A stretch of 64,000 nucleotides of DNA from Blastocystis sp. Blastoise (Eukaryota; Protista; Bigyra: Opalinata). Numbering within the stretch: position 1 is the first letter of the stretch; each line of letters begins with the position of its first letter. The position numbers and the translations under genes are program-made. The DNA lies in contig JBBPEB010000005.1 of NCBI GenBank assembly GCA_039096225.1, forward strand, positions 992,001 to 1,056,000, written 5' to 3'. This document shows positions 1-25,199 of the stretch, piece by piece. The notes beneath the pieces were generated by a model. It was not told where the DNA came from. It worked only from the letters and a program-made list of their open reading frames with translations, and did no database searches.

Positions 1-705
1 ACTATACCTACATGTATTCAAGTTGATTATCAAAATACAAGATTAACTACTAATCATTTCAATATCAATAGAGCTTTACCATTTATACCTGAATATATAT
101 TATTTTGGTTTACAAATGGTTATAGTTCAACAACTATTAGTAATATAGCTAGTCCAAATGTATGGCCAACATATCAAAGTTGTTTGATTGGTGATGTTCA
201 AATGTTCCCTCAAACTGAATTCCCTACTCAAATGTATTATCATAATCTTACTACAAAAGGTCATGTCTTCAATAATGCAGAAACTACTAGTTTATCTTGT
301 CCTAATAAGAATTTATATTGTTTATGGGCTGATAATTCAAATCCTGAAACTATTCTTAAATATGATGAATGGATTAAACATCCTATTTATATTATTCCAA
401 CAAAATCATTAATGAATATCCAATCAGATAGTGGTATTGAATTGAATTTCGATTGTAATGTTGATGTTCATGATGTTAAATATGAACATATTGATTCATC
501 CACTGTTCCTGATGGACAAACGTGTCAATGGAAAAGTTACGTTGATCCAACAGATAAAAAGACAAAATATCATTGGGAAGCTGATACTGCCTCTTATAAG
601 GTAGCTTCTCATGCTGGTATTTATAAACATACTACTACTGATCTAAGTGATAGTTCTCCTTATACCTTACATATGATTGCTGTACGTAGTGTACGTGATA
701 TTTAA
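1..705 (+). CDS. Major capsid protein-like paralog 1 (C-terminal part; 5' end outside window)
   Basis: Frame is open from base 1 (TIPTCIQ...NRALPFIPEYILFWFTN...IGDVQMFPQTEFPT...LYCLWADNSNP...WIKHPIYIIP...SGIELNF...YTLH...VRD). It is collinear with the C-terminal half of ORF 885-2108. Confidence 0.7.
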   Translation, partial: TIPTCIQVDYQNTRLTTNHFNINRALPFIPEYILFWFTNGYSSTTISNIASPNVWPTYQSCLIGDVQMFPQTEFPTQMYYHNLTTKGHVFNNAETTSLSCPNKNLYCLWADNSNPETILKYDEWIKHPIYIIPTKSLMNIQSDSGIELNFDCNVDVHDVKYEHIDSSTVPDGQTCQWKSYVDPTDKKTKYHWEADTASYKVASHAGIYKHTTTDLSDSSPYTLHMIAVRSVRDI

Positions 706-884
706 ATTTAATATTTCTTACTTACTATTCTTAACGTTAACTTGTTTAATTAATTCTATTCTATTCTATAATACAATCATTTGTTTTGTTATAAAAATTA
801 AAATTAATTAATAATTATAAAATATTATTATTTTTTTTATTTTTTATTTTGTTAAAAAGAAATATATAAACAATAATTATTAAC

Positions 885-2108
885 ATGGAAGGATTCCCAA
901 GACAATTCTTACCTTCAAAGGCAAATCAAACTATTAAACCTGTACAAATTCCTATTCTAGTTTCTACAAGTCAGGATTTATTAAATCAACCTTATCCATT
1001 TGAATTCTTATATAATTCAGTGGATAGCCCTTATATTGATTTCAGTAATTCATTCTTAGAACTGAATTTCAATATTACTGGTACTAGAGACAAAAATTCA
1101 ACATCTTCAGTTGTACAACATTCTAATATCTATAGTATTATTGATAAGATTACTACAGATCTTACATTTGTATCTCCGACGGGTCAAGATATTCTTATTA
1201 ATTATTCTGAATCTTCTATTGAATCCAGTAAAGCAAGAAAATTTGTTACTATTAAAGAATTAAGTAAAGATGAAATTGATAAATCTATGTATAGTATGAC
1301 AGAATGCTTATATAATAACACGTTGAGTAGTATTGCTGGAATGGAAATGAAAGAAAAAGCTCAAGTTATTATTCCTTTATCTCTTATTACTGGTCTTGGT
1401 ACATTTGATTGTGCTATTAAAGTAAAATCTTTGAAGATGCAATTCGTTACAAATTATTTAAAGAATCTATTTACCGGTACCACTGTAATCACTGCATTGA
1501 AATTTGATCGTGTTTATATTCATCTTCAACAAATCTATGATATTAATTTTGGTAATGATCCACGTGCTTTGATTAAATGTATTCCTAATAATTGTCAGAT
1601 ATCTGCATTCACTACACCTGTTTATTCACAAGCATCAGTATCAGGTACACCAACTCCACAACAATTCTTATCCAATAGAAGTGTTGTTTTCGTTCCTGAT
1701 TATTGTATGTTATACTTCACAAATCAAGAGAAGAGCATGATTCCTATTAAAACTGAATTATTAAAATCATGTCAATTCCAAATTGGTGGTCAAAATATCT
1801 TACCAAAGACGGATTTCCCTACTACGTATAAAACAACGAATCCATCACAAATTATTCCTAATGCTATGCTTTATAATACTTGGAGATGTAATAGTCATCC
1901 TCAATCTCCTTTAAACGGTGAAAAGTGGTATGAACAACCTATTTATATATTCCCTATTTCAAGTGTTGTTGATGTCAATACGCGTAGTGGTTGTGAAGTT
2001 AATATCTCATTATTAACTGAATATACTGGTGGAACTGTTACTGGTTCTTATACTTTATATGCTCATTTTATATTTGTTAAATTTGTTAGAGATGGTGCTA
2101 CCAATTAA
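885..2108 (+). CDS. Double jelly-roll major capsid protein-like (Polinton/PLV type), 407 aa
   Basis: Size and beta-rich pattern. Polinton-MCP-like motifs YIDFSNSFLELNFNI, SNIYSIIDKI, VIIPLSLITG, P-DYCMLYF, IGGQNILP and PIYIFP. Adjacent to a penton-like gene and the ATPase. Confidence 0.75.
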   Translation: MEGFPRQFLPSKANQTIKPVQIPILVSTSQDLLNQPYPFEFLYNSVDSPYIDFSNSFLELNFNITGTRDKNSTSSVVQHSNIYSIIDKITTDLTFVSPTGQDILINYSESSIESSKARKFVTIKELSKDEIDKSMYSMTECLYNNTLSSIAGMEMKEKAQVIIPLSLITGLGTFDCAIKVKSLKMQFVTNYLKNLFTGTTVITALKFDRVYIHLQQIYDINFGNDPRALIKCIPNNCQISAFTTPVYSQASVSGTPTPQQFLSNRSVVFVPDYCMLYFTNQEKSMIPIKTELLKSCQFQIGGQNILPKTDFPTTYKTTNPSQIIPNAMLYNTWRCNSHPQSPLNGEKWYEQPIYIFPISSVVDVNTRSGCEVNISLLTEYTGGTVTGSYTLYAHFIFVKFVRDGATN

Positions 2109-2208
2109 TTTATTTATTTGATATTTTTATTATTTGTATCAACTTTATATTATTCTAAAAAAAAATATTGTTTTGTTTATAATTTCATAATTAATTCATT
2201 TAATAAAA

Positions 2209-2880
2209 ATGACATCAATATCTCATCTAAGTAAAATTACAAGTCAAATCTGTCATGAACAATTCAATTATACACTTGATCTAGTGGGTAAAAATATAAC
2301 TCATATCAATACATTAGTGAATACAAGTGATATCATCAATATTCCAGAATTCAATATTGAATTTTATGAAAATGCTGGTAGATTTACATTTCCAGCTGGA
2401 AATTATACTTTAGAAGTTTTTTTAGATCAATTATATGAAATTGGGAAAAAAATGAAATCCTATGTTGAAGGAGAACCTTATGGTTTCAGTTATAATAAAG
2501 AAACTAAAACTTTTAAATCAAATCATTATTTTGAATGTGGTCGTAGTGCTGGACTATTTAAATACTTAGGCATCAAATCAGTATACTTTTCACCGGGTGA
2601 TACAATCGTATTTACTGATGAATATATATCCAAGAATATATCATGGTATAAGATCTATATGTTACGTGTATATTGTGATATTATTAATAAAGATAATGAT
2701 TTGATTTCTATTCCTTTATATGCTAAACAAGGATTTGATAATACATTTGCTTTAAGTGATTTATCTATTCCATGTATTGATGGTAAATATACAGATATCC
2801 AATGGGAAGTATATGATCAATTAAATAATCCAATTGATTTATCAAATACAAATCTTTATATATACTTTACAGCATCTTAA
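2209..2880 (+). CDS. Minor capsid (penton) protein-like, 223 aa
   Basis: Motifs FPAGNYTL, LFKYLGI, LRVYCDII and IQWEVYDQLNNPIDL...IYF match the pattern of Polinton/PLV single-jelly-roll minor capsid proteins. Located between the MCP and the ATPase. Confidence 0.75.
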   Translation: MTSISHLSKITSQICHEQFNYTLDLVGKNITHINTLVNTSDIINIPEFNIEFYENAGRFTFPAGNYTLEVFLDQLYEIGKKMKSYVEGEPYGFSYNKETKTFKSNHYFECGRSAGLFKYLGIKSVYFSPGDTIVFTDEYISKNISWYKIYMLRVYCDIINKDNDLISIPLYAKQGFDNTFALSDLSIPCIDGKYTDIQWEVYDQLNNPIDLSNTNLYIYFTAS

Positions 2881-2950
2881 TAAAATCATTTATTTATCAT
2901 TAACTTATCATTAATTATTTTTTTTGTTTTGTTGATAAAAATCATATAAA

Positions 2951-3988
2951 ATGGTGAATAAAATAAATCCATTAAAAGAAACACGTAAAGGATGTGGAGT
3001 TTTAGAATTCAAATATGGAAAATCACATCATAAAACATATGAATCAAAATTTATATTGATTATTGCAAGAACATTCTCAGGTAAATCTTTCTTAACTGTG
3101 AACCTCTTATGTTCTATGGATCTTAAAAATAAATATAAACAAGTCACAGTAATTTGTCCTGATGCATCCAATAAGAATGAATGTTATACATCCTTTCAAG
3201 ATATTTGTGAACATGCTGGAATTGATTATAAATGGTATGATTCTGTAGATGATAAATTTAAAAAGATTAAAACTGTTGATGAATTAGTCAATACATATAA
3301 ATTACCAGAACATAATTTTATTGTATTGGATGATATCTATCCATTATCTAGACAAACCAAACAATTGATTGTATCTATATTATCTAAAGGTCGTCATTAT
3401 AAACAGAATGCTATTATATGTCTTCAAAGTCATACAGATGTTACCAATCAATCTATATTAAGTCAAGTATCTCATTTCTTTATTAATAGTCAAATCTTAA
3501 AACGTGATCCTGGATTCTTACCAGATAAATTAAAGATTATGCCATCAAATCTAAATGAAATTCTTACAGATGAAGAATTAATGAATGATCCACATCAATT
3601 CTTTATGTTAAAACAAGGTAGTGATGATTTAACGATATGGACTAATCCTGATTGTGGTAGTAAACAGAATGTATATAAGATGGTAAAGAAAAGGAAATGG
3701 ACAGAAGAAGATAGTGAAAAAGAGAAACGAGAAGAACAAGGTGAAGTATCAGGTAGTGGATTGAAACGTCCTAATGAACATATATCTACATATGAAAAGA
3801 AAATGAAGAAGTTTTTACCTGTTGAAGAAGAAGTCTCATTGAAAGGTATTGAACGAGATGAAAAAGATAAACCTAAAGAATCCATCTTACAAATCATACA
3901 AGATCAAATCATACAAGATAGTCAACGACGCATTTTCAATCCTTATTTAAATAAAAAGCATTATTCTGGTTATCCATCTTTTCATTAA
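2951..3988 (+). CDS. A32/FtsK-HerA family viral genome-packaging ATPase
   Basis: Walker A variant ILIIARTFSGKS, Walker B FIVLDD, and the A32-type arginine-finger/Q motif SKGRHYKQNAIICLQ. Confidence 0.9.
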   Translation: MVNKINPLKETRKGCGVLEFKYGKSHHKTYESKFILIIARTFSGKSFLTVNLLCSMDLKNKYKQVTVICPDASNKNECYTSFQDICEHAGIDYKWYDSVDDKFKKIKTVDELVNTYKLPEHNFIVLDDIYPLSRQTKQLIVSILSKGRHYKQNAIICLQSHTDVTNQSILSQVSHFFINSQILKRDPGFLPDKLKIMPSNLNEILTDEELMNDPHQFFMLKQGSDDLTIWTNPDCGSKQNVYKMVKKRKWTEEDSEKEKREEQGEVSGSGLKRPNEHISTYEKKMKKFLPVEEEVSLKGIERDEKDKPKESILQIIQDQIIQDSQRRIFNPYLNKKHYSGYPSFH

Positions 3989-4040
3989 TTTTTTATATTT
4001 TAATTTATTATATAAACCATAATTATTTTATTGTTTTGTT

Positions 4041-5066
4041 ATGAGTTCAATTACAAAAAGATATTTAAAACAAAATTGTGATCCACGATTATTTGGAGGA
4101 TCACCACCAAAATCAAATAGACGTGATCTTTATCATAAACGTTATGTAAGATATGGAGGAACTGGATTTGAAGAAATTGTTAGACAACAAACTAGAGATG
4201 CTGATTGGGCTGATTTTAAAAATGGTGTCTATACTGCATTACCTATTTTAGGTACATTAGGAGCATTTGCTGGATATAATTATTATCAGAAACGTAAAGA
4301 ACAAAAACGTCAAGAAAAAGCAAAAGAAGAAAAGAAAAGACAATTTGAAGAACATATTGAAGATGCTAATAGAGATGATGAATTATATAATGATGATGCT
4401 ACTTATCAACCAAAGAGAATAACAAGAAAAATGATGGCTGATGATGATAAAGATTTTGATGATAATGTTGTTGATGAAGATGATTATGGTCAAGGTACCC
4501 ATAGAAGGCATCAGAAACATCGTAAAGAACATGGGAGTCACCGAGAAAAAGAAAAGAAAACAAGTAAATTCGTTACTCCTCAAATAAGAATTATTGCTAA
4601 GAAGTCTATTCGTTCTAGTAATGTAAAATCTAATAAGAAGAAATTACAAGATATTAAAGAACGATTACCTAAAAATGATGAGCATGTGTCTGTACGTGAT
4701 ATTGTTAATGTTGTTATCGATAAAGAATATCCTATGGATCCAAAACAAAAGCATTCTATTATTGCGAATACTGCTATTAAAACTATTAAAACGATTGTTC
4801 CTATTGTAGTGAATGCATTAAAATACTATTATCCTTCTCTTGGTATCCCTATTGATTTCGCTTATAATATGATTACTACTGATGATGATAAGAAACGTAA
4901 AGAAACTGCTGATAACTATTTTAAAAATCCTAGTGGAAGTGGTGTTACAAAAGAGAATGCTGAACGTTGTGGTGGTGCTCTTGTCAACTCTACATCCTTT
5001 GATACTACTACTAATTTAATTATTAATCTTGTTCAATTCTTCTTAAAAAAATTTCATTTAAATTAA
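4041..5066 (+). CDS. Putative virion core protein precursor
   Basis: Intact 341-aa ORF with LFGG, RYGG, YGQG, SGSG and RCGG motifs, a hydrophobic segment (ALPILGTLGAFAGYNYY), and alternating acidic and basic blocks. Function is inferred from context. Confidence 0.55.
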   Translation: MSSITKRYLKQNCDPRLFGGSPPKSNRRDLYHKRYVRYGGTGFEEIVRQQTRDADWADFKNGVYTALPILGTLGAFAGYNYYQKRKEQKRQEKAKEEKKRQFEEHIEDANRDDELYNDDATYQPKRITRKMMADDDKDFDDNVVDEDDYGQGTHRRHQKHRKEHGSHREKEKKTSKFVTPQIRIIAKKSIRSSNVKSNKKKLQDIKERLPKNDEHVSVRDIVNVVIDKEYPMDPKQKHSIIANTAIKTIKTIVPIVVNALKYYYPSLGIPIDFAYNMITTDDDKKRKETADNYFKNPSGSGVTKENAERCGGALVNSTSFDTTTNLIINLVQFFLKKFHLN

Positions 5067-5142
5067 TTATTTTAACTTTTATTATTTCATAATTAATTAT
5101 TTGTTTTGTTATATAATTATTTTTAAATTAATACAATAAATA

Positions 5143-6321
5143 ATGCAAAGTAATTTAGGAGATAGTGTAACTCTCTATGATATTTTATCAAGAAATCAGA
5201 AAAAACAATCTTGGGATCCATGGTTACCGAATTCATATATTTGTCAAGATGAACAACCTGTACAACCTTTAGCACATGATCCTAATGCACAAGGATCTAT
5301 GTATAGCTCAATGGCAGTTCAAGCATTGAGAAATCATGGTCAATCAACTGAAGATATGTTTATAGCTACTATGAATTCAGCTAAAGCTAATGGAGATACT
5401 GCAAGATACTCATCTATGTTATCTCAATGGCAAACTAATTATGGTGTACCTACTACCAGTAAGATATGGTATGATGCTAGTAATCCTAATAATTATCAAT
5501 ATGAAACGTTATTATCTTCAATAAAAGGCTTAAATGGATTGAATTCAGAAGCATATAAACAGAATAAAGAGAATTATGAATTCTATTCAAATGCTCAAAA
5601 AGATATGTATGATCAATTAAACAATATTTCATATCAAATTAAAACAAATAATGATGACATTCATGCTGAAGCAGCATCAATGAAACAAAATATGACTAAT
5701 AATTATGAAAATCTACATAAAGATAACGAATATTTGAACTCAAAGATGGATACAAATGAAAATAATCGTCAATCAGATAATAATATTACAAACTCTAAAA
5801 TGGATACATATGAAAATAATCGTAAAAAAGATGTTAACAATACAAATTCGAAGATGGATAAATATGAAAATAATCGTCATCAAGACTACAACAATACACA
5901 ATCTAGAATGGATAAATATGAAAAGAATCGTCAAAATGATACTAATAAAACAAACGCTAAGATGGATGAATATGAAAGTAACCGTAAAAAAGATGCCAAA
6001 GCATTTGAAGATAAGATGGATGAACAAGGTATGCATTATGATATTGTTGAAAGTGGCATACCATTCACAATTTATGTTAATGGTAAGAACTCAAAAGTAA
6101 TATGTAATCAGCCAGAGTTTAAGGATCAGGTATTCCTTCTTAAAGATGAAAAGATTTATGTCAGATCAGCTGAAAAGTCAGGTTATATATATAAAAAGTA
6201 CGGAACAATGCCACTTGATGAATTCATTAGCAAATATAATGAAGGCTTATTTAATGAAAATAAGGCACTTCCTGATAAAGAACATAGTGGATTAAGAAAT
6301 CATCAAAACGATGAAACTTAA
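5143..6321 (+). CDS. Viral protein with 18-aa tandem repeat coiled coil (fibre/spike candidate)
   Basis: 392-aa ORF. Five full copies plus a partial copy of SKMDxYExNRxxDxNxTN at 54-bp spacing (5740, 5794, 5848, 5902, 5956, 6010). Confidence 0.6.
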   Translation: MQSNLGDSVTLYDILSRNQKKQSWDPWLPNSYICQDEQPVQPLAHDPNAQGSMYSSMAVQALRNHGQSTEDMFIATMNSAKANGDTARYSSMLSQWQTNYGVPTTSKIWYDASNPNNYQYETLLSSIKGLNGLNSEAYKQNKENYEFYSNAQKDMYDQLNNISYQIKTNNDDIHAEAASMKQNMTNNYENLHKDNEYLNSKMDTNENNRQSDNNITNSKMDTYENNRKKDVNNTNSKMDKYENNRHQDYNNTQSRMDKYEKNRQNDTNKTNAKMDEYESNRKKDAKAFEDKMDEQGMHYDIVESGIPFTIYVNGKNSKVICNQPEFKDQVFLLKDEKIYVRSAEKSGYIYKKYGTMPLDEFISKYNEGLFNENKALPDKEHSGLRNHQNDET

Positions 6322-6443
6322 TAGACTATATTATATTTACTTATTTATGCAATATTATGTTTGCCATTTAAGTTATAATTTTGTTAATATATATTTATTT
6401 TTTTGTTTTGTTTTAAAATTCATAATTATTTTATTAAACTAAA

Positions 6444-7934
6444 ATGATACAAAGTGCTCGTTTAAATGTTTCAAATAAAGGATTAGTAGGCGTAAATCAT
6501 CGTGCTACTGGTCATGAATATCGAAATTATATTGTTCCAGGATCTATTCCTGATGGAGAAGAACGTTATCCAATTAATTATTCTATTGCTCCAAATTCAT
6601 TATATGCTGTTAAGAAAATTGAAAGTAATATGGTCAATAGAGCAACATCCAATCCATTTTTCTCCTATTTATCAGAAACCAGACAAGATATTATACAAAG
6701 TTCCTTAGAAGAATCAGAAGAAAGTGAACCAATAGATGAAGGATCTGGGTTATTACCTGATGGTAGAATTCCGAAGAATTTCACAAGAAAACTCATTTAT
6801 GCTCATGATTATGTCTTACCTTATATGAAACAAAATCATATGTCTGATTATGCTAAATATTCTAGATTATTAAATCCTCGTACAATTGATAGTGCAATTG
6901 ATTTTACTAAAAGAGATCGTGATGGTTATTTATATTCTAGAGGTGGTAATTTATTTTCTAATATTTATCACACTGTGAGTGATGTATATAATGTGTCTGA
7001 TAAATTAACTGGAGGTATTAATAACATCACTCATGGAATAAGTAATGCTGTTGATTATGGTGCAAATAAATTCAAAGATCTCAAGAATTGGTGGAGAGAT
7101 ATTAATGTTGATCCACAAGAAGGATTCAATGATATTAAAGGAAAACTTGTAAGTGATAGAAACAATTTATATGATAATTGGAAATTAACTGATGATAATG
7201 AAGCTAAGAAAAATAATAAAATATTAGCTGATAACTATTTCAGATTTGCTCATATGTCAGGTAATGATACTAAAGAACAAAGACTTAACAAAAAGGTATC
7301 TTTAGATAATCAAGCAACAACATTTCATAAAAATTATATTCCATATGCAGAAAACCCAACATTTGTTAATAAAGTTGTTAATACTGCAACAAATGTATCA
7401 AAACCTGTGTATAATGGCGTTAAGAAAGTTGCAAACTCTATTGTTAGTGGTACAAAGAACGCGTTTAATAGTTTTTCTAATTGGTGGTATGGTAAAAATC
7501 CAGAGGAAGAAATACCACAAACAGAAAATCCAATAGAAACAAATAATAATGTTATACCAACTTCTTCATCTACCCCTGATACTCTAACTCTAGAAAATAT
7601 TCATAATATTACCATAGAAGATTCAAATCCTCCAAATTTAATTCCTCTTATGAATGATCCTACTGTTCCTTTACCTGATACTGTTCCAATGTCTCAAGCA
7701 ATAACGAATAAATTCACTCCAAATATTACACCTGTAGCCCCGATTCCTAATCCAGTAGAAAATGTCACTCTTGAAAATAATAATAAACGAAATAAAAAAG
7801 AAGATGATGAATTTCAATCATTTGATGAAGATGATGGTGAGGTATTTTATGATCTCGAAGAAGGTAATGGATTACGTAGAAAAAGACGTATTTCAAAAAA
7901 TAAAAAATTAAGAAATAAACGTAGAAAACATTAG
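6444..7934 (+). CDS. Putative virion core / membrane-penetration precursor (adenovirus pVI-like organisation)
   Basis: 496 aa. EGSG, SRGG and LTGG motifs followed by amphipathic helices ending in NWW, a Pro-rich region, an acidic patch, and a C-terminal EGNG-LRRKRR basic tail. Confidence 0.55.
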   Translation: MIQSARLNVSNKGLVGVNHRATGHEYRNYIVPGSIPDGEERYPINYSIAPNSLYAVKKIESNMVNRATSNPFFSYLSETRQDIIQSSLEESEESEPIDEGSGLLPDGRIPKNFTRKLIYAHDYVLPYMKQNHMSDYAKYSRLLNPRTIDSAIDFTKRDRDGYLYSRGGNLFSNIYHTVSDVYNVSDKLTGGINNITHGISNAVDYGANKFKDLKNWWRDINVDPQEGFNDIKGKLVSDRNNLYDNWKLTDDNEAKKNNKILADNYFRFAHMSGNDTKEQRLNKKVSLDNQATTFHKNYIPYAENPTFVNKVVNTATNVSKPVYNGVKKVANSIVSGTKNAFNSFSNWWYGKNPEEEIPQTENPIETNNNVIPTSSSTPDTLTLENIHNITIEDSNPPNLIPLMNDPTVPLPDTVPMSQAITNKFTPNITPVAPIPNPVENVTLENNNKRNKKEDDEFQSFDEDDGEVFYDLEEGNGLRRKRRISKNKKLRNKRRKH

Positions 7935-7983
7935 TTAATTTTATTTTGTTTTATTTATTATTATTTTTAAAAACTAAACAATT

Positions 7984-7992
7984 TGTTTTGTT
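7984..7992 (+). terminator. TGTTTTGTT putative polyadenylation-associated motif (one of many copies)
   Basis: The same 9-mer occurs 36-83 nt after each of the seven viral + strand stop codons, and also after host and hAT genes (e.g. 25268, 40622, 41660). Confidence 0.6.
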
Positions 7993-8008
7993 ATTTATAA
8001 AAATTAAT

Positions 8009-8176
8009 TTAAAAATCAATAAAATTCTTGATATAATCTTCGTAATCATCCTCACTTTCAGTTTGAATAGTATCCATTTCAGAATCACTATCACTTAATT
8101 CATCAACTTCAAAGTTTCCATAAGGTTTCCAAGTACCTTGTTTATAATCTGGAGCAAATTGCTTTGGAGAATTCAT
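8009..8176 (-). CDS. Small acidic protein, 55 aa (below ORF-track cutoff)
   Basis: MNSPKQFAPDYKQGTWKPYGNFEVDELSDSDSEMDTIQTESEDDYEDYIKNFIDF*. Coding-like composition between AT-rich spacers, convergent with the structural genes. Confidence 0.65.
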   Translation of the reverse strand: MNSPKQFAPDYKQGTWKPYGNFEVDELSDSDSEMDTIQTESEDDYEDYIKNFIDF

Positions 8177-8221
8177 AATAAATAGTATAAAAATAGAAAA
8201 AATTCACAATACAATTTTATT

Positions 8222-8251
8222 GTTCTAGAATGTTCTAGAATGTTCTCGAAA
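8222..8251. promoter_or_regulatory. Perfect heat-shock-element-like array (six alternating nTTCn/nGAAn pentamers)
   Basis: gTTCt aGAAt gTTCt aGAAt gTTCt cGAAa, 46-75 bp upstream of the ATG at 8176. Confidence 0.55.
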
Positions 8252-8852
8252 ATTTTTAGTTTTCCATATCGGTCGGTCATGTTTCCAAAAGTCTCTCGTT
8301 ATAGTCGTGGTGGTGGGTACATCTTTTTACAAGACCACACCACCACCAGCTTTTCTTTCACCCACTATAAATACATACCTTGATCACTTTACTCTTTTTA
8401 TATAATTTTTTTATGATTATCATGACTTTTTATATTATTTATTGATCACTATACATACATTTTTATTTTTATATATTCCCGTGATTATTTTTATTATTTC
8501 TTTTTAGATAGAACCATCCATTTCATCTTTTCTCTATATAAAGGGAGGGTCGGGGTGTGTGTTTATTTAGCACATTCTGTGCTTCTTTTCGTATTTCTTT
8601 CTGTATTCCCGTGATTATTTTACTCACTTTACCAACGATGGAGTCATTTTCCATGAATATTCCCTGTAAAGGGGAGGGTTGGACTGTGTATTTTATTTCT
8701 TTTATGATTACTATGAGTTTCTCCTTGATCACTTTACGTTTCACGTTGGAATCGGAACACAAATAAATTAAAAATAAATAAACATGGGAAAAAATAAATA
8801 CACACACACACTACCCTACACTCCCATGGTTATTTTACTTCAGAAATGTTAT

Positions 8853-8997
8853 TAATTCTTCCGTCGAGAACAAAAAGGGGGGATGACTTCCCCGCTTATG
8901 GCTGCGCGCGTCGCGCAGACTCTATGCGGGGTTTGCATACCCCCTTCTGCAGTTCGAAGAACGGAAGAATTATTAGTTTAACGAATCAACTAATACT
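8853..8997. other. GC-rich imperfect palindrome plus small hairpin at the putative element terminus
   Basis: Stems 8853-8864/8961-8972 (12 bp perfect), 8875-8885/8936-8946, 8890-8895/8926-8931 and 8902-8908/8912-8918. Second hairpin 8971-8978/8988-8995. Confidence 0.7.
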
Positions 8998-10331
8998 ATA
9001 TAAACAATAAATAGAATGAATATATAAAATATAAAAAAAACTATAAGAATAAATATATATTTCTACTAATAAATACTATAAGACCTATATATACAAAACT
9101 ATAGATAAAAGTAAATAATTAAATTAAAAATAAATAATTATATAAAACAATACTATTTAATATATATCTGAATTAAATATATCAAATAAATTAAATAAAA
9201 TAACATAAAAATAATAATAATAAAAATATTTATATATACCTAAAAAATGAAAAGGAAGAATTTTCTTTTTTAATTAAACCACTTTTTCAAGATTCGGTAA
9301 CTACCCTAGAGTAATATAGATAGTGAATAAAGTAAAATAAATAAAAGAATAAATAAAAATAAATATATACAGAAATGAATGTCTCCCATTCTCTCACTTT
9401 TGTTTTGATTTGAATTTATTTTGATTTAAAATCGTCAACCATTAGTACATAAGTGATTTGAAGAATCTCATTCAATTACAACCTAAATAAATAAAATAGA
9501 AATTAGACAAAATTATTATATTTTATATTTATATACTTTTGAAGAGACCTGTGTGACTAAAGTGAAGGCTTGAAACTGTTAGTGACACCTATAAGTTCTA
9601 AAAATAAATAAACGATAACATAATTACTGATTAAGTATTTGTATATAAAATAATTATAAAATATTTACTAGTATAAAGGTTCACAGACTTCCTGAGATAG
9701 TTGATGCTCGAAAATAAATGAAAAGCAATCAACAAAGCTGGATAAGCTTAAAAATAAATTTTTGATTTTTTAAAGAAATAAATTTTTTTTATACATTTTT
9801 TCTTTTGTTAGTTAAAGACTTTTTTTCGACCGATTTTTTTCTTTTTTTGTCTTAAACTGAACTCAAACCCTAACCCTAACCCTAGACAAGAAAAATGGTC
9901 CACCAGTGACAATTTTCTGACATTCATAAGAATGGCAACTTTATCATAATTCACATTCAATTCTATGTTCTTTCGAGTCTGTGAATTCGTTAGTATACGT
10001 GAATAATTCAATTAAGTAAATTGCCGAACAAAATTAAAAATGATTGTCCTAGATATTGTGGATAATTTCTTGAATATGTTATAGAAAGTCTTAAATTATC
10101 AGTTAATATACAAATAAAACATCTTACTATCAGTTTCTTAGATATAAATATATAAATATAAAACAACGAATTTATATGAGTGTCCACACAACATTATACC
10201 AAGTTTATTTTTGTTTTTGTGGTATAAATTACTTTCGTCGGTATAAAAAAAATTAAAGACCGATTTTTTCGTAATTTTGGTATAAATTTATGGGGAACCT
10301 GGTATAAAAGGGAAAAAGCTGCCCACCAGTG

Positions 10332-11898
10332 TATACTTTTTTATTAGTAAATAATATTTAAAATAATTAATAAGAAATAATGTCCCAAAATACTGATGGA
10401 CAACAACCAAACACTCAGACAACTTCAGAAACGTATAACTATTTATATATACCCTAATATATATAGTAATATATATAATTAGTATTATAGATATAACAAA
10501 TAGAACAATATAAAAAAAATTAAACGTGACATATATAATAAACATATATTATATTATATATCTAGTCTACTAAAGACTCTTGCTCTTATTTCTGTCATTA
10601 CACGACTAATACACTTTCTAATAGTACCACTATCAATAGACTTCCATTCATCACTTATTCTTTGTATAAAATCATCAATTCCATTCCATCTTGTTATGTT
10701 TCTTTCAGCATTTCCTTTCCATATACTGAATACATTTTCTATCGGGTTCATATCAGGACTATAAGGAGGACCATATATTACTGGGATCTCAAATTCATTA
10801 CATATATCATTTATAAGGCCTTTTTGGTGTACCGGCGCATTATCCATATATAAGCAAATATTCATATCATCTTCAGTATAATGAGTTAGTGCAGCACGTA
10901 GAAAATTACCAAAAACAGCTCCAGTAACAGAATTACTAAATAATTCTGTGTATCCAGCTCCAGTATTACTGATGGTTGCAATTGCTGTAAGAGATAATCT
11001 TTTTGATAAATGATGATAATATATTTTCTCACCTACTTTACCCCATCCATACTGCGAGAAATTGTTAAAAGACCAGTGCACTTCATCTAAATAAATTATT
11101 CTTTTACCTTCATGTATCATATTATCTATTTCATTGTATACTTCTATTCTTCTTGTTTTGTTATCATCATTATTTGAATTTTGACCACGTTTATAAAGCT
11201 TTTTGACATTAAAAGATGCACCAACATGTTCAGCCATACGACTACTATGTAGATGTTTTGCTACAGTGGCTTTAGAACAAAAAGAAGTTGTATTACTTTC
11301 TTTCAACGATTTCAATTCTTCTTCAGCTTGTATTCTTACATCTTCAGGTACATCATAAGTTTCAGTCACCCTTTCGAAGATTGAATTAGTAGAAGTATCA
11401 GATAATACTAAGACAGCATCATTGAGAGTTAATTTTGGATTTATAATGAACATATTCTTCAGTTTTTTGGACATATTAGGTGTAATAATAGCATGCCTAC
11501 CACTCTTTCTACGTTCTTTTATTAAAGGAGTATTGTTTACTAACTTTCTTACATATCGTTTAACTATATCTAGCTTTATATCTAACTGGAGTGAATAATC
11601 TTCTGGTGTCCATCGAACACCGTGAATTGACCACAAGTCCATTAATCGTTGTTTTTCAGAATCAGGTATCTTAGTATTCTTTCTTTTCCCAGTCTCAGTA
11701 GCCAGAAACGAATCATGATCACGTTGATTAATTAAGGAAATACGAGACGAGCGTCTTGCATTACTATATATATTAGGGTATATATAAATAGTTATACGTT
11801 TCTGAAGTTGTCTGAGTGTTTGGTTGTTGTCCATCAGTATTCTGGGACATTATTTCTTATTAATTATTTTAAATATTATTTACTAATAAAAAAGTATA
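10332..11898 (-). mobile_element. Tc1/IS630-family DNA transposon with 139-bp inverted repeats
   Basis: 10332-10470 is the reverse complement of 11760-11898 (one mismatch seen). Both outer ends are TA, consistent with a TA target duplication. The repeats enclose a DDE transposase. Confidence 0.75.
10554..11850 (-). CDS. DD34E transposase (IS630/Tc1, DDE_3)
   Basis: IIYLDE, LYMDNAPVH and PPYSPDMNPIENVFS; 34 residues between the second D and the E. Probable start at 11850 with a 34-nt GT-AG intron at 11764-11797 (alternative unspliced start at 11834). Confidence 0.9.
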
Positions 11899-18545: not shown

Positions 18546-20520
18546 TAGAGCGGTTCAAAAGTTGCAACAAGTTGCGACAAGTTGTGATAGTATTTAAAAA
18601 CATTTTTTCCTTGATAAATAAAACAAATTTTTAATAAAGAAAACATAAATAAAACATAAAAATACAAATTATGAATTAATTAAGAAAAAATATTAATCAA
18701 GATTAATCTCTGAAACATTACTAAAAGTAGATAAATTATCAAAAAGTTGAAAAAAAAATCATCAAGAGAATCAGATAAAAGACTATTTGAATTGAAATTT
18801 CTATCATAAACATCAGTTTCATGTTCATTTGATAATATTTCATTATCATCTATAATTGTTATTGAAGAATCATTAATTGTAGTATCTATTTCATCTTCAA
18901 TAATCATTGAATCATTTTGAATTGAAATAGTATCTATTTGTGGATTCATATAGAAAAATAAATCTCTGAACAAATTTTCATCAGAATAACCAAATTTCTT
19001 CTTTGTAAATAAAATATTCATAAAAGAGAAAGATCTTTCTACACTAACAGTAGTAGAAGGTAATTGAAGAATGAAAGTAATTATTTTAGAAATAGAAGGA
19101 ATTTGTTTAAGAATAGGAAAATATAATTTTATCATTTGTTCTTTACTTATCATATTTTGAGGAAAACATTCATTTTATTTCTTCTCATTATCTATAAAAT
19201 CTTTCAATTTTGAAACACATAATAAATAATCTTTCTTTTCTATATCTAAAAATTCAGATGAAGTGAAAGAAGGAAATGAAGAAGACATCAAGAAAGGATT
19301 TTCATTATAAAATATCATTTGTTTCTTATTCATTGTTTTGATTTCTTTCAATTTTAATAATGTATTCGTAAAACATATATAATATAAAATAATAATAAAT
19401 AATAAATATACTTTTCTTATATTCTTGAATAAATGAAGATTGAACATTTGATAAATTATTTTCTTCACATATTTCATTCACTATCATAATTATATTATCT
19501 TTTGAATTCTTCAATTCTTCTTCAATTTCATCTATCAAACTAGAAACATTACAACATTGAAAATTATCATTGGATAATAATTTTAATATTTCTTCAAACA
19601 TTATTCCACTCTTCAAGAGAATCGATATTTTGATTTGTAAAGAAGAAGATAATTGATTATCTTGAAGAATATTCAATATTTCTTTATCTTTTTCACTTAA
19701 CATATCCAATGTTTCTAAATATTCATAGAATGATTTCAAATATTTAAAATGTTTCAAAATATATCTTAATGATTTATACCAAGATATCCATCGTGTTTCT
19801 TTAAATAAGAAAAGAAAGAAGACGAAGGAAGATTATTTATCTTTAAAAAGGATAACCATATATCATTTTTCTTTCTAAAGAAACGAAATGATGAATTAAT
19901 GAGATTAATAAATGATTTAGTATTAATAAAACCATCTTTTAGTTTCTCAGCTACTAAATTAATCATATGCATAAAACATCCACAATAAATTCCATCACTA
20001 AAAATCGATTCATAATTATTACCAGCATTTCGCATAGTATTACAGTTATCAGTGTGAAACGATTTGAATTGTTTTCTTTTAATGTTCCATTCTTCTAATG
20101 TATCTTGAATGATAGAAAGAAAAATATTAGATTTTTGATTTTCCATTCGTTTCAAGTTTATTAAGTAGAAAGGTTCATTCAAATTGAAAGAATTCAATCT
20201 TCTTACGATTATTGATAAATAATTAGAACCAGCATCTGAGGTAGAAGAATCACATAGAACAGCTAGAGAACATTTATCTAAACTCATTTTTACATATTGA
20301 ATACGTTCATCATACAATTTAGGTATAATTCGTTTTTGAATAGTATTATAACATGGCATATTATTATTATTCATTTCAAATATATTTTTCAATTTCATTC
20401 TAAATTGAGGTTTCTTGAATTTATTAATAGGAATACATTCTTCTAAAAATAATTCTATTAATTTTTCAAATCTTAAATAATTCACATTAGATTCAATAAT
20501 TCTATTGTTATTATTATTAG
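18546..20520 (-). mobile_element. hAT transposon, 5'-truncated copy B
   Basis: TIR TAGAGCGGTTCAAAAGTTGC at 18546. Transposase fragments on the - strand are near-identical to copy A. Cut off at 20520 by another TIR. Confidence 0.85.
18680..20510 (-). pseudogene. hAT transposase, truncated/disrupted
   Basis: Motifs AVLCDSST, FHTDN, CFMHMINL (CxxH), TRW (in a shifted frame) and LPSTTVSVERSFS. Frameshift and in-frame stop; lacks the N-terminal zinc finger. Confidence 0.85.
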
Positions 20521-20918
20521 TAGAGCGGTTCAAAAGTTGCGATAAAAGTTGTGACAAGTTGCGACAAAAGTTGCGACAAAGTTGCGACAAGTTGTGACAA
20601 GTTGCGACACTTTTTATATCTCATTTGTGAGCCATATATTTATTATATAATAAATTTATATATATAATTATAGAGAGATTTACATGATGATTACATAAAT
20701 AATTTTTAAATAAATTAAAAATAAGTTTAATACTCTTAATAAGCGTTTTAAACACTAAAAATTGAATTTTTAAAGTCAAAATTATTCTATAAATATCGTT
20801 ATTTTAATCATTTTAACAATCTTTTAACGATTTTTAAAATATTATATTATTTTTATATTATAAGAATAATGTTATTAAATATAAAAAGTGAAAAATTGCA
20901 TGTCATAGATAGAGCGGT
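20521..20918 (-). mobile_element. Inverted right end of the non-autonomous hAT derivative
   Basis: Reverse complement of ~23533-23918, beginning with the TIR and AAGTTGCGAC subterminal repeats and ending in a 9-bp TIR stub. Confidence 0.8.
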
Positions 20919-21510
20919 TAGAGCGGTTCAAAAGTTGCGACAAATTTCACAACTTGTCGCAACTTGTCGCAATTTGTCGCAACTTTTTTAATCATGAATA
21001 ATGGCGAGAGTCCCGTAATTATTTTATTAATTTGGCAATTAAAAAAGACTTGTTTAAAAAAAGAATTCAGTGTCGCAATTTGTCACAACTTTGTCACAAC
21101 TTTTCATTTAAACATATATAGACCTATTTTACATTTATATAAAATATGATAATTTATGAAATTCATAGTGGTGAATATAATAAGCATCAAGAATTATTTA
21201 AATACTTAATTCAAACAAAGAAAAACATTAAAAATACTTTTCAAAAAATCATGAATATTTTTTTTACAGTCAAAAAAATGAAATATTCACGGGACATTAT
21301 TAATTTTCAGTCATTTTAAAATGTATAAATAATTGAAAGAAATCATCTCATTTTCATTAATTTATATTTCTATATAAATCGTTCTTTCAATATAGATTCA
21401 TTCATCTATTCATAAAGTCTTCTTTAATACTCATTTCTATCAATAAAATATCATTCTAAGAATCAAAAGAAGTATATATATGTATTCATCATTCTTAATT
21501 ATCTTTAGAT

Positions 21511-24500
21511 ATGGTTAAAAAAACAATGAAACAATCTAATAATCATAAAGTGAAAAGAAAAGAAAAGAAGAAGTCTTCATCTACTAAGAAAAGTGAGAAT
21601 GTTAGAACGAGAATCTACAAAATGAATCCAATAAGTCGTTTAACAAAAATAAAATTATCATCCAGTATGAATGAAGAAGAAAAGAAATGTTTCATATCAA
21701 AGAATAATAATCTTCGTTGTATTTATTGTAATTGTATTGTAGATCATAAAAGATTATCTTCTATTAATAAACATCTCAATACTGATATGCATATTTCTAA
21801 TATGAATTCATTCATGAAAGAAAAGTCTGCTACTGTATCTTCTGTAAAGAAAACTAATACTAAAAATAGAATTATTGAATCTAATGTGAATTATATAAGA
21901 TTTGAAAAATTAATAGAATTATTTTTAGAAGAATGTATTCCTATTAATAAATTCAAGAAACCTCAATTTAGAATGAAATTGAAAAATATATTTGAAATGA
22001 ATAATAATAATATGCCATGTTATAATACTATTCAAAAACGAATTATACCTAAATTATATGATGAACGTATTCAATATGTAAAAATGAATTTAGATAAATG
22101 TTCTCTAGCTGTTCTATGTGATTCTTCTACCTCAGATGCTGGTTCTAATTATTTATCAATAATCGTAAGAAGATTGAATTCTTTCAATTTGAATGAACCT
22201 TTCTACTTAATAAACTTGAAACGAATGGAAAATCAAAAATCTAATAATTATCTTTCTATCATTCAAGATACATTAGAAGAATGGAATATTAGAAGAAAAC
22301 AGTTTAATCGTTTCATACAGATAACTGTAATACTATGCGAATAGAGCGGTTCAAAAGTTGCGACAAATCGAGTTGCGACAAATTTCACAACTTGTCGCAA
22401 CTTGTCGCAATTTGTCGCAACTTTTTTAACCATTAATAATGGCGAGAGTACCGCGATTATTTTATTAATTTGGCAATTAAAAAAGACTTGTTTAAAAAAT
22501 GAATTCAGTGTCGCAATTTGTCACAACTTTGTCACAACTTTTCATTTAAACATATATTCAATTAATATTTTATATAATAGAATATTTCATTATATAAATA
22601 AAGTAGTAACAAATATATATACCAAATTTCATTTTATAAAAATGAAAAGATCATATGAAATGAATTAGAGTAAGAATTCAAAATATTTTGAATAATTTTT
22701 TTACAGTCAAAAATTTGATTTATTTACGGGATAAAACCATTTTTGACTCATTTTTGAAATTACATTTTTTAATCAAAATTCAAATGAATTTCAATTTTAT
22801 TTTCTTTGCATTATTTATCCATTTTCAATTGAAATCATAGTTTGTATTATTTATAGCATTTAATAATGTGAATGATTTCATTAATACATTGATTTTAGAT
22901 CTTTTTGAAATGATTTATTTTTTATCAACTCATTTTATCATCTAATTAAGCATATTATATTTATAATTGACTATTAATTATCATATAGATACATATTTAT
23001 ATCATAATGATTCATTATATGATGTTTAATGAAGAATGTTAAAAATTGAATTTTGATGAAATTCAATAATTTGAATATATATGTATTCAATATCTTATTA
23101 AAGACTCATACGAAAGAAATGAATCAATTTTTTAAATATTATATGCTTAATGAGCTCATTTTGTCTTCAATGAAGCTTTTATGACATTCAATTCTTCACT
23201 TTTTATATTTAATAACATTATTTTGATAATATAAAAATAATATCATACTTTAAAAATCGTTAAAAGAATTAAAAAATGATTAAAATAAGTATATTTATCT
23301 AATGAATTTTTCTTATGAATTTCAAAAATTTCAATTTTTAGTGTTTAAAACGCTTATTTTGTGTATTAAACTTATTTTTAATTTATTTAAAAATTATTTA
23401 TGTAATCATCATGTAAATATCTTTATAATTATATATTTAAATATATTTTATAATAAATATATGACTTACAAATGAGATATAAAAAGTGTCACAACTGTCT
23501 TAACTTGTCGCAACTTTTCTCACAACTTTTGAACCGCTCTATCTATGACATTCAATTTTTCACTTTTTATATTTAATAACATTATTCTTATAATATAAAA
23601 ATAATATAATATTTTAAAAATCGTTAAAAGATTGTTAAAATGATTAAAATAACGATATTTATAGAATAAATTTGACTTTAAAAAATCAATTTTTAGTGTT
23701 TAAAACGCTTATTAAGAGTGTTAAACTTATTTTTAATTTATTTAAAAATTATTTATGTAATCATCATGTAAATCTCTCTATAATTATATATATAAATTTA
23801 TTATATAATAAATATATGGCTTACAAATGAGATATAAAAAGTGTCGCAACTTGTCGCAACTTGTCACAACTTTGTCGCAACTTGTCGCAACTTTTGTCGC
23901 AACTTTTGAACCGCTCTAATGCATATGATTAATTTAGTAGCTGAGAAACTAAAAGATGGTTTTATTAATACTAAATCATTTATTAATCTCATTAATTCAT
24001 CATTTCGTTTCTTTAGAAAGAAAAATGATTTATGGTTATCCTTTTTAAAGATAAATAATCTTCCTTCGTCTTCTTTCTTTTCTTATTTAAAGAAACACGA
24101 TGGATATCTTGGTATAAATCATTAAGATATATTTTGAAACATTTTAAATATTTGAAATCATTCTATGAATATTTAGAAACATTGGATATGTTAAGTGAAA
24201 AAGATAAAGAAATATTGAATATTCTTCAAGATAATCAATTATCTTCTTCTTTACAAATCAAAATATCGATTCTCTTGAAGAGTGGAATAATGTTTGAAGA
24301 AATATTAAAATTATTATCCAATGATAATTTTCAATGTTGTAATGTTTCTAGTTTGATAGATGAAATTGAAGAAGAATTGAAGAATTCAAAAGATAATATA
24401 ATTATGATAGTGAATGAAATATGTGAAGAAAATAATTTATCAAATGTTCAATCTTCATTTATTCAAGAATATAAGAAAAGTATATTTATTATTTATTATT

Positions 24501-25199
24501 ATTTTATATTATATATGTTTTACGAATACATTATTAAAATTGAAAGAAATCAAAACAATGAATAAGAAACAAATGATATTTTATAATGAAAATCCTTTCT
24601 TGATGTCTTCTTCATTTCCTTCTTTCACTTCATCTGAATTTTTAGATATAGAAAAGAAAGATTATTTATTATGTGTTTCAAAATTGAAAGATTTTATAGA
24701 TAATGAGAAGAAATAAAATGAATGTTTTCCTCAAAATATGATAAGTAAAGAACAAATGATAAAATTATATTTTCCTATTCTTAAACAAATTCCTTCTATT
24801 TCTAAAATAATTACTTTCATTCTTCAATTACCTTCTACTACTGTTAGTGTAGAAAGATATTTCTCTTTTATGAATATTTTATTTACAAAGAAGAAATTTG
24901 GTTATTCTGATGAAAATTTGTTTAGAGATTTATTTTTCTATATGAATTCACAAACAGATACTATTTCAATTCAAAATGATTCAATGATTATTGAAGATGA
25001 AATAGATACTACAATTAATGATTCTTCAATAACAATTATAGATGATAATGAAATATTATCAAATGAAAATGAAAATGAAGAAAAAAATACAAATTTCAAT
25101 TCAAATAGTGTTTTATCTGATTCTCTTGATGATATTTTATCAATTTCTTTTGATAATTTATCTACTTTCAGTAATGTTTCAGAGATCAATCTTGATTAA
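21511..25199 (+). pseudogene. hAT transposase (CGGBP1-like zinc finger), disrupted
   Basis: N-terminal CIYCNCIVDHKRLSSINKHLNTDMH finger, catalytic and dimerisation motifs. Interrupted at 22342-23918, with frameshifts and a stop at 24714. Confidence 0.85.
22342..23918 (+). mobile_element. Non-autonomous hAT derivative with one left end and two tandem right ends
   Basis: TIR at 22342 and reverse TIRs ending at 23541 and 23918. The ~350-bp right-end segment is duplicated. No coding capacity. Confidence 0.85.

What the first reader, a model, noticed from the sequence alone, without database searches (positions are those of the whole stretch)
1..2108. Two tandem, diverged major-capsid paralogs, one carrying a ~55-aa insertion
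Seen: the two ORFs align block by block (FIPEYILFWFTN/FVPDYCMLYFTN; FPQTEFPT/LPKTDFPT; WADNSNP/WRCNSHP; PIYIIP/PIYIFP; SGIELN/SGCEVN; YTLH..VRD/YTLY..VRD). Paralog 1 has a long extra segment (CNVDVHDVKY...DLSDSS) between the last two strands where paralog 2 has ~12 aa. Known: most Polintons/PLVs have one MCP. Inference: a heteromeric capsid, or a specialised capsomer with a protruding loop for host attachment. More paralogs may lie upstream.
Basis: partly seen in the sequence, partly recalled or inferred. Interest (0 to 1): 0.8.

Follow-up and report, generated by a model that had tools for sequence, protein, structure and literature searches.

The report
Blastocystis virus with paired capsid genes
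A virus integrated in what is likely a Blastocystis gut protist carries two side-by-side, 29%-identical copies of its main capsid gene, a pair seen in every relative checked; one copy has three extra loops predicted to face outward and the two likely build one mixed shell, a new two-gene version of a design already known from related viruses.

Summary
ORF1 (1-705) is the 3' half of a 497-aa protein (MCP-A); ORF2 (885-2108, 407 aa) is MCP-B. They align almost end to end (29% identity; profile E 3e-54). A confident MCP-A model (pLDDT 85) is a double jelly-roll capsid protein (Z 20 to faustovirus MCP). MCP-A also has longer DE1 and HI1 loops upstream of the window, and lacks MCP-B's 14-aa N-terminal arm. 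The pair is adjacent in 22 of 22 checkable annotated Blastocystis copies, and 8 of 8 metagenomic MCP-A clusters share contig lengths with MCP-B clusters. The two genes have similar tree lengths. No third paralog family was found. Best reading: an integrated Polinton-like (MELD-type) virus whose shell uses both proteins, likely in 2:1 mixed trimers. Separate homotrimers are the main rival; neither was tested. Several capsid genes per virus are already known (PLV duplications since 2015, Trimcap, PBCV-1 variants), so this is a new variant, not a new principle. Host attachment by the loop is untested.

The parts
1..705 (+). [quoted passage not shown]
   Evidence: open frame; identical to the C-terminal 234 aa of P0130/P0137; model of P0130 pLDDT 85.3; capsid matches
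457..666 (+). HI2 loop of MCP-A, 70 aa (P0130 residues 416-485); four predicted beta strands within 472-636; predicted exterior
   Evidence: DSSP of the model; loop lengths; coordinates; HI insertions are exterior in PBCV-1 MCPs (PMC9617893)
885..2108 (+). MCP-B, 407 aa, short-looped paralog
   Evidence: 87 proteins at E<=0.01, itself included; Atlas features nearest to viral clusters, one with a DJR Pfam on 10% of members
885..926 (+). 14-aa N-terminal arm of MCP-B, absent from MCP-A
   Evidence: 14 aa before strand B1 in 15 of 25 B rows, 6 aa in 10 of 25; 0-3 aa in 12 of 13 A rows; the A model aligns to solved MCPs from residue 1
2013..2060 (+). HI2 loop of MCP-B, 16 aa (residues 377-392)
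2209..2880 (+). 223-aa protein, likely penton (minor capsid protein) by position and size; fold not tested
   Evidence: follows B in 10 of 10 listed accessions; no significant Pfam or PHROG match
2951..3988 (+). 345-aa P-loop ATPase, likely the A32-type genome-packaging ATPase
   Evidence: Walker A/B-like motifs in the sequence (A32 motif recalled); PHROG 2666 'head and packaging' E 1.9e-10; weak Pfam P-loop hits below cut-off; third gene after A in 9 of 13 listed accessions
4041..5066 (+). 341-aa intronless viral ORF, function unknown
   Evidence: 18-member cluster; the 14 named rows listed are all Blastocystis
5143..6321 (+). 392-aa intronless viral ORF with a 54-nt tandem repeat at 5635-5995; possible fibre or coiled coil (inferred)
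6444..7934 (+). 496-aa intronless viral ORF, function unknown
   Evidence: 15-member cluster
781..7992 (+). Seven copies of TTGTTTTGTT (781, 2168, 2924, 4031, 5101, 6403, 7983), one after each of the seven genes, all on +; likely a transcription signal
   Evidence: 13 in the window vs 0.46 expected, 0 of 100 shuffles; 7 of 13 lie in the first 8 kb
8200..8997 (.). Putative right terminal region of the element, ending near 8997 (inferred; the left end lies outside the window)
   Evidence: GC 45% at 8800-8999, 10% at 9000-9199; the last bases read AG.. on the minus strand, a Polinton-type end (recalled)

Best explanation
These are two diverged copies of one gene, predicted to encode double jelly-roll major capsid proteins, in the capsid module of a likely Polinton-like virus integrated in a likely Blastocystis genome, and both proteins likely go into one shell, most likely as mixed 2:1 trimers. 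Shown: homology over nearly the full length, adjacency in every checkable copy, three longer loops (DE1, HI1, HI2) in MCP-A, and an N-terminal arm in MCP-B only. Predicted: the fold, and the outward position of the loops. Inferred: an old duplication within this virus lineage split the work. MCP-B would supply the plain base subunit with its arm, which in other such capsids clamps neighbouring subunits. MCP-A would supply a variable beta-rich crown on top of the capsomer. Neither gene could then be lost. What the crown binds (host surface, a fibre, or just the neighbouring subunit) is open.
For: Fold: pLDDT 85.3, pTM 0.85; all 33 listed PDB Foldseek rows are DJR capsid or scaffold entries; VIA Z 20.4, rmsd 5.0, 365 aligned to faustovirus MCP, Z 19.0 to Sputnik. 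Pair retention: 20 of 20 visible A accessions have a B accession at +/-1, plus 2 of 2 by locus tag; 8 of 8 metagenomic A clusters share exact contig lengths with B clusters, 34 shared vs 1.3 in shifted controls. Similar tree lengths (5.95 vs 5.53) and 8 of 10 shared splits over 13 pairs. 58 positions conserved and identical in both families, 29 conserved but different. Loop asymmetry: DE1 41-95 vs 16-32, HI1 40-54 vs 19-25, HI2 47-97 vs 16-49 (13 A, 25 B rows). Precedents: AlphaFold3 favours a heterotrimer for Trimcap B (ipTM 0.89 vs 0.19-0.25); PBCV-1 has 2:1 heterotrimers among variants of 26-43% identity that differ in exterior insertions.
Against: Nothing here distinguishes mixed trimers from two kinds of homotrimer; PBCV-1 has four homotrimer types and two heterotrimer types. 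Tree congruence is expected from linkage alone. Each gene has its own intergenic motif, so nothing fixes a 2:1 ratio. In one subfamily 2 of 3 annotated A copies are internally shortened (P0092 414 aa, P0093 469 aa vs P0154 508 aa) while 3 of 3 B copies are 436 aa. The HI2 ranges touch (one B lineage has 49 aa, the shortest A 47). The distant relative P0100 also starts without an arm, so the arm may be a gain in B and not essential. No expression or particle evidence was obtained.
Confidence: 0.45

Rival explanations
1. Two kinds of homotrimer in one shell: MCP-B builds most of the lattice, and crowned MCP-A trimers sit at special positions (around vertices or at fibre sites), as MCPv1 does in PBCV-1.
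For: PBCV-1 MCPv1 is a homotrimer with a large DE1 insertion forming a ~5-nm protrusion. Separate transcription units would allow unequal amounts. B is more conserved in its core than A (0.76 vs 0.62, though the B set is more redundant).
Against: Tree lengths over matched pairs are nearly equal. A lacks the N-terminal arm that all PBCV-1 variants have. A small shell has few special positions (inference).
Confidence: 0.3
2. This is two-thirds of a three-MCP (Trimcap-like) module; a third, far more diverged MCP lies upstream and the capsomer is an A:B:C heterotrimer.
For: The window cuts the element inside ORF1, so upstream genes were not seen. Trimcap paralogs are so diverged that each needs its own HMM.
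Against: A profile of both families against 1.84 billion representatives, which include proteins of the named Blastocystis assembly, returned 11 hits: 10 A or B members or fragments and P0100, no third family, although it reached P0100 at about 20-24% identity. A and B are 29% identical, unlike Trimcap paralogs.
Confidence: 0.1
3. The two proteins are used apart: alternative particles for different hosts or helper viruses, or one acts as a temporary scaffold or second layer.
For: Separate transcription signals; DJR scaffolds exist (vaccinia D13 among the fold matches).
Against: One candidate penton and one ATPase follow the pair; known multi-MCP viruses with structures mix the variants in one shell.
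Confidence: 0.1
4. MCP-A is a redundant or decaying duplicate with no structural role.
For: Two internally shortened A annotations in one subfamily; the 5' half at this locus was not read.
Against: 15 of 15 distinct A sequences in the window's own cluster are 490 or 497 aa; A is kept across lineages 44-48% identical to it with a tree length like B's.
Confidence: 0.05

Closest known systems
Trimcap / group X Polinton-like viruses (PMC7805220; 10.64898/2026.06.19.733378) and PLVs with duplicated MCP (PMC4642659)
   Same: Small DNA virus with more than one DJR MCP gene beside a likely penton and packaging ATPase; stramenopile hosts; heteromeric capsomer proposed.
   Different: Two genes found, not three; 29% identical and alignable, whereas Trimcap paralogs fall at divergent places in the MCP tree; the A+B profile found no outside MCP family except P0100; no relative found in IMG/VR; gut rather than aquatic host.
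Blastocystis MELD virus (Starrett et al. 2021, PMC8502044)
   Same: Host genus; virion proteins not recognisable by sequence. The best viral fold match is an uncharacterised 420-aa 'MELD virus sp.' protein (E 1.9e-17, TM 0.56/0.65, 12% identity).
   Different: Whether it is the same family was not tested: its sequence and Figure 5 could not be seen. The section read does not mention two capsid genes ('paralog' 0 times in the main text). The PolB and integrase genes would lie outside the window.
PBCV-1 MCP variants (PMC9617893)
   Same: Paralogs at 26-43% identity with conserved base and divergent exterior BC/DE/FG/HI insertions; both homotrimers and 2:1 heterotrimers.
   Different: Giant virus with six MCPs, most of them minority capsomers; all have an N-terminal arm, which MCP-A lacks.
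Faustovirus MCP / ASFV p72 / melbournevirus MCP
   Same: Top structural matches; DE1, HI1 and HI2 loops extend outward, and HI1 contacts HI2 of the neighbour in melbournevirus (PMC13119691).
   Different: 7-10% identity; giant viruses; the crown there belongs to the main MCP, not to one of two paralogs.

Membership tests
[quoted passage not shown] | Two tandem eight-stranded jelly rolls | tested here: met
   MCP-A model and matches; MCP-B by profile homology over 350 columns, not by its own model
[quoted passage not shown] | Forms pseudo-hexameric trimers in a virion | not tested
   No complex model, no particle data
Polinton-like virus (broad sense, incl. MELD) | DJR MCP | tested here: met
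Polinton-like virus (broad sense, incl. MELD) | A32-like packaging ATPase | tested here: inconclusive
   P-loop ATPase with a packaging-category PHROG hit, E 1.9e-10; no Pfam A32 family hit
Polinton-like virus (broad sense, incl. MELD) | Single jelly-roll penton | tested here: inconclusive
   223-aa ORF in the expected place; no family match; not folded
Polinton-like virus (broad sense, incl. MELD) | 15-40 kb genome, free or integrated, with terminal repeats | tested here: inconclusive
   Longest metagenomic contigs with the pair are 23.7-27.5 kb; about 20 copies on long contigs of one named assembly; only one putative end is in the window
Polintoviricetes (Maverick/Polinton proper) | pPolB, RVE integrase and maturation protease | not testable with these tools
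   None seen in 1-9000; the rest of the element lies upstream and could not be fetched
Trimcap PLV | Three MCP genes per genome | tested here: inconclusive
   Two found; no third family; upstream DNA unread
Trimcap PLV | MCPs matching Trimcap A1-3 or B profiles | not testable with these tools
   Profiles not held; indirectly, the A+B profile hit no large outside family and IMG/VR scans were empty

The most novel reading that the evidence does not exclude
A widespread, barely described virus lineage of the commonest gut protist builds its whole shell from an obligate 2:1 heterotrimer of two paralogs with split jobs: one supplies the clamping N-terminal arm, the other a fast-varying three-loop crown that is shuffled between alleles and sets host-subtype specificity. 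It would be an origin of heteromeric capsomers independent of Trimcap, young enough to align, and present in about 20 full-length copies in a culturable host.
Probability: 0.25. Interest if true: 0.68.

Novelty: new variant of a known kind. Interest (0 to 1): 0.42.

Why it matters
Why small DNA viruses keep several capsid genes is open: for Trimcap viruses the papers read give only a model. This pair is simpler (two genes), still alignable (29%), has a clear anatomical split, and sits in many full-length copies in a protist that can be cultured, so the homo- versus heterotrimer question becomes testable. It also gives a fold-level identification of the capsid of viruses that probably infect Blastocystis and occur in many public metagenomes, a family that Pfam, PHROGs and the IMG/VR scans here all missed.

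Tried and rejected
No genome is held for the window, so the upstream half of the element could not be read. Scans for flanking DNA found no relative: viral contigs 0 of 3 scans, metagenome contigs 0 of 2, genome contigs 0 of 1, phages 0. No sequencing runs were obtained, so expression, copy depth and the element's end are untested. Single-sequence folding of MCP-B failed (pLDDT 32). Pfam, PHROGs and PDB sequence searches gave no capsid match for either protein. dN/dS was not computed: no DNA of other copies was held. Rejected: pseudogene (full-length copies); chance similarity; tree congruence as proof of co-evolution (linkage explains it); the Fisher P values as proof of positive selection (the variable sites belong to two haplotype classes and are not independent). 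PMC9239254 and the egovirus preprint added nothing on this element.

Full report
What is in the sequence. The window opens inside a run of seven intronless, same-strand ORFs (1-705, 885-2108, 2209-2880, 2951-3988, 4041-5066, 5143-6321, 6444-7934). GC falls from 45% to 10% at about base 9000, after which the DNA looks like AT-rich eukaryotic sequence with transposons.

Full-length ORF1. No genome was held, but two database proteins of 497 aa (P0130 on 4 contigs, P0137 on 1) end in ORF1's 234 residues exactly. I call this family MCP-A and ORF2's family MCP-B. Whether this very locus has an intact 5' half is likely but not shown. Full-length A and B are 28.9% identical over 419 columns; their profiles align with probability 100, E 3.4e-54, over 350 columns; across 13 A and 25 B rows identity is 25-34%.

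Fold. AlphaFold2 on P0130 with a 39-row alignment gave pLDDT 85.3 and pTM 0.85. All 33 listed Foldseek rows from the PDB are double jelly-roll capsid or scaffold entries (best E 5.7e-10). VIA-align gives Z 20.4 (rmsd 5.0, 365 aligned) to faustovirus MCP, 19.9 to a PBCV-1 chain, 19.0 to Sputnik and 18.9 to mavirus, at 7-10% identity. Among predicted viral structures an uncharacterised 'MELD virus sp.' protein stands well above the rest (E 1.9e-17, next 5.5e-10). The Atlas feature search agrees (one source). MCP-B has no good model of its own; its fold rests on homology to A.

Where the insertions lie. I named strands B1-I2 from the model's secondary structure (my assignment). Family-wide, A has longer DE1 (41-95 vs 16-32), HI1 (40-54 vs 19-25) and HI2 (47-97 vs 16-49) loops, B has a longer BC2 (15-26 vs 10), and the CD, EF and GH loops are fixed in length within each family. 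In PBCV-1 MCPs the BC, DE, FG and HI insertions are exterior and CD, EF, GH interior (PMC9617893, passages); in melbournevirus DE1, HI1 and HI2 extend outward and HI1 touches the neighbour's HI2 (PMC13119691, passages). So all three A insertions are predicted to crown the capsomer. The A model aligns to solved MCPs from residue 1, at their residues 32-70 in most rows: A has no N-terminal arm (0-3 aa in 12 of 13 rows; the 13th probably has a mis-called start), whereas B has 14 aa in 15 of 25 rows and 6 aa in 10. One distant relative, P0100, has short loops like B and no arm like A, which suggests that the A loops are derived and leaves the arm's history open.

The pair is stable. The named relatives are all annotated in Blastocystis sp. 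Blastoise, so the host is likely a Blastocystis of that low-GC group. In that assembly 20 of 20 visible A accessions have a B accession next to them, and 2 of 2 further A genes do so by locus tag; the five places of P0130/P0137 have no visible accession and were left out, and 4 of 24 B accessions have no listed A accession beside them (one is the locus-tag case). The window's subfamily has about 20 copies of each gene; three other subfamilies are 45-54% identical. The 223-aa gene follows B in 10 of 10 listed accessions and the ATPase comes next in 9 of 13. In public metagenome assemblies, 8 of 8 A clusters share exact longest-contig lengths with B clusters (34 shared; 1.3 on average, at most 4, when lengths are shifted); this is indirect, since the contigs were not read. 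Over 13 matched pairs the A and B trees share 8 of 10 splits (Mantel r 0.84) and have lengths 5.95 and 5.53. Linkage alone explains the congruence; the useful point is that A is neither lost nor evolving much faster. Against this, 2 of 3 annotated A copies of one subfamily are internally shortened.

Variation. Mean pairwise identity in DE1, HI1, BC2, DE2 and HI2 is 0.28 (A) and 0.39 (B), against 0.62 and 0.76 elsewhere (the FG loops, also exterior, were counted with the rest). Among 15 near-identical A sequences, 52 of 182 positions in those loops vary against 15 of 315 elsewhere; among 9 B sequences, 23 of 89 against 11 of 318. The differences form two haplotype classes with mosaics between them (e.g. 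P0140, P0151). This fits surface exposure and possibly a host or defence interaction, but also relaxed constraint, and B's short loops vary too. It does not show host attachment.

A third paralog? A profile of both families against 1.84 billion representatives gave 11 hits: A and B members or fragments, and P0100. tblastn finds no further copy in the window. A third MCP as diverged as Trimcap's could escape this.

How it likely works. Shown: homology, adjacency, loop and arm asymmetry. Predicted: fold and exterior loops. Inferred: both proteins enter one shell, packaged by the neighbouring ATPase and closed by the likely penton. I put 0.45 on mixed 2:1 trimers, 0.3 on two homotrimer types, 0.1 on an unseen third MCP, 0.1 on separate uses and 0.05 on decay. 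The choice between the first two rests on analogy and on the missing arm, not on a test.

What is known. Yutin et al. [quoted passage not shown] Trimcap viruses have three (PMC7805220, passages), make up about 10% of PLV genomes retrieved from IMG/VR, and model best as heterotrimers (10.64898/2026.06.19.733378, abstract, passages and section 7). PBCV-1 shows both arrangements. A Blastocystis MELD virus with unrecognisable virion proteins was described in 2021 (PMC8502044, passages and section 3.4; Figure 5 not visible; the supplement is held cut and the word Blastocystis was not found in it) and used in one phylogeny (10.1101/2022.05.25.493380, one passage). I found no description of a two-MCP module in Blastocystis viruses in searches. 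'Blastocystis' occurs 0 times in the main text of three PLV surveys, and the genome paper for the named strain does not discuss endogenous viruses in the passages returned (PMC10690189). Supplements of the bioRxiv preprints could not be seen and may include this family. Three earlier scan notes on other genomes filed multi-MCP loci as Trimcap; they are leads only.

Verdict. Real, well supported as a capsid-gene pair, and a new two-gene variant of a known multi-capsid design. Interest 0.42; up to 0.68 if an obligate 2:1 heterotrimer with a host-specifying crown is shown.

Noticed in passing
window 781, 2168, 2924, 4031, 5101, 6403, 7983 (+): TTGTTTTGTT occurs once after each viral gene. It is one T longer than the TGTTTGTT 3'-end signal of human Blastocystis subtypes (PMC4159000, passages), which is reported not to be enriched in tortoise isolates (PMC10690189 section 8). 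In 3 of 6 cases it lies 41-42 nt before the next ATG (4 of 6 with a one-base variant at 844), so it could instead be a promoter element.
   Followed up: partly
window 10332-11898: Complete-looking DDE transposon: 139-bp terminal inverted repeats (99% complementary) around a 426-aa DDE_3 transposase at 10554-11834 on the minus strand.
   Followed up: partly
window 18680-25199: Two near-identical copies, in opposite orientation, of ORF pieces that look like a hAT-type transposase (family label recalled, not tested).
   Followed up: no
window 5635-5995: 54-nt (18-aa) tandem repeat inside the 392-aa viral ORF; possible fibre or coiled-coil stalk.
   Followed up: no
protein P0100 (403 aa, 1720-bp contig): Only outside relative of the A/B families (E 1.5e-7); closer to B (24%, E 1e-9) than to A; a possible outgroup from another host.
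   Followed up: partly
proteins P0130-P0151: Two allele classes of both capsid genes coexist in one named assembly, with mosaics between them, pointing to recombination among copies.
   Followed up: partly
protein clusters of P0160, P0161, P0003: Relatives are common in public metagenome assemblies (343 members in one cluster; one member on 104 contigs) yet absent from three IMG/VR scans.
   Followed up: partly
window 9868-9884: Short CCCTAA telomere-like repeat just left of the transposon.
   Followed up: no
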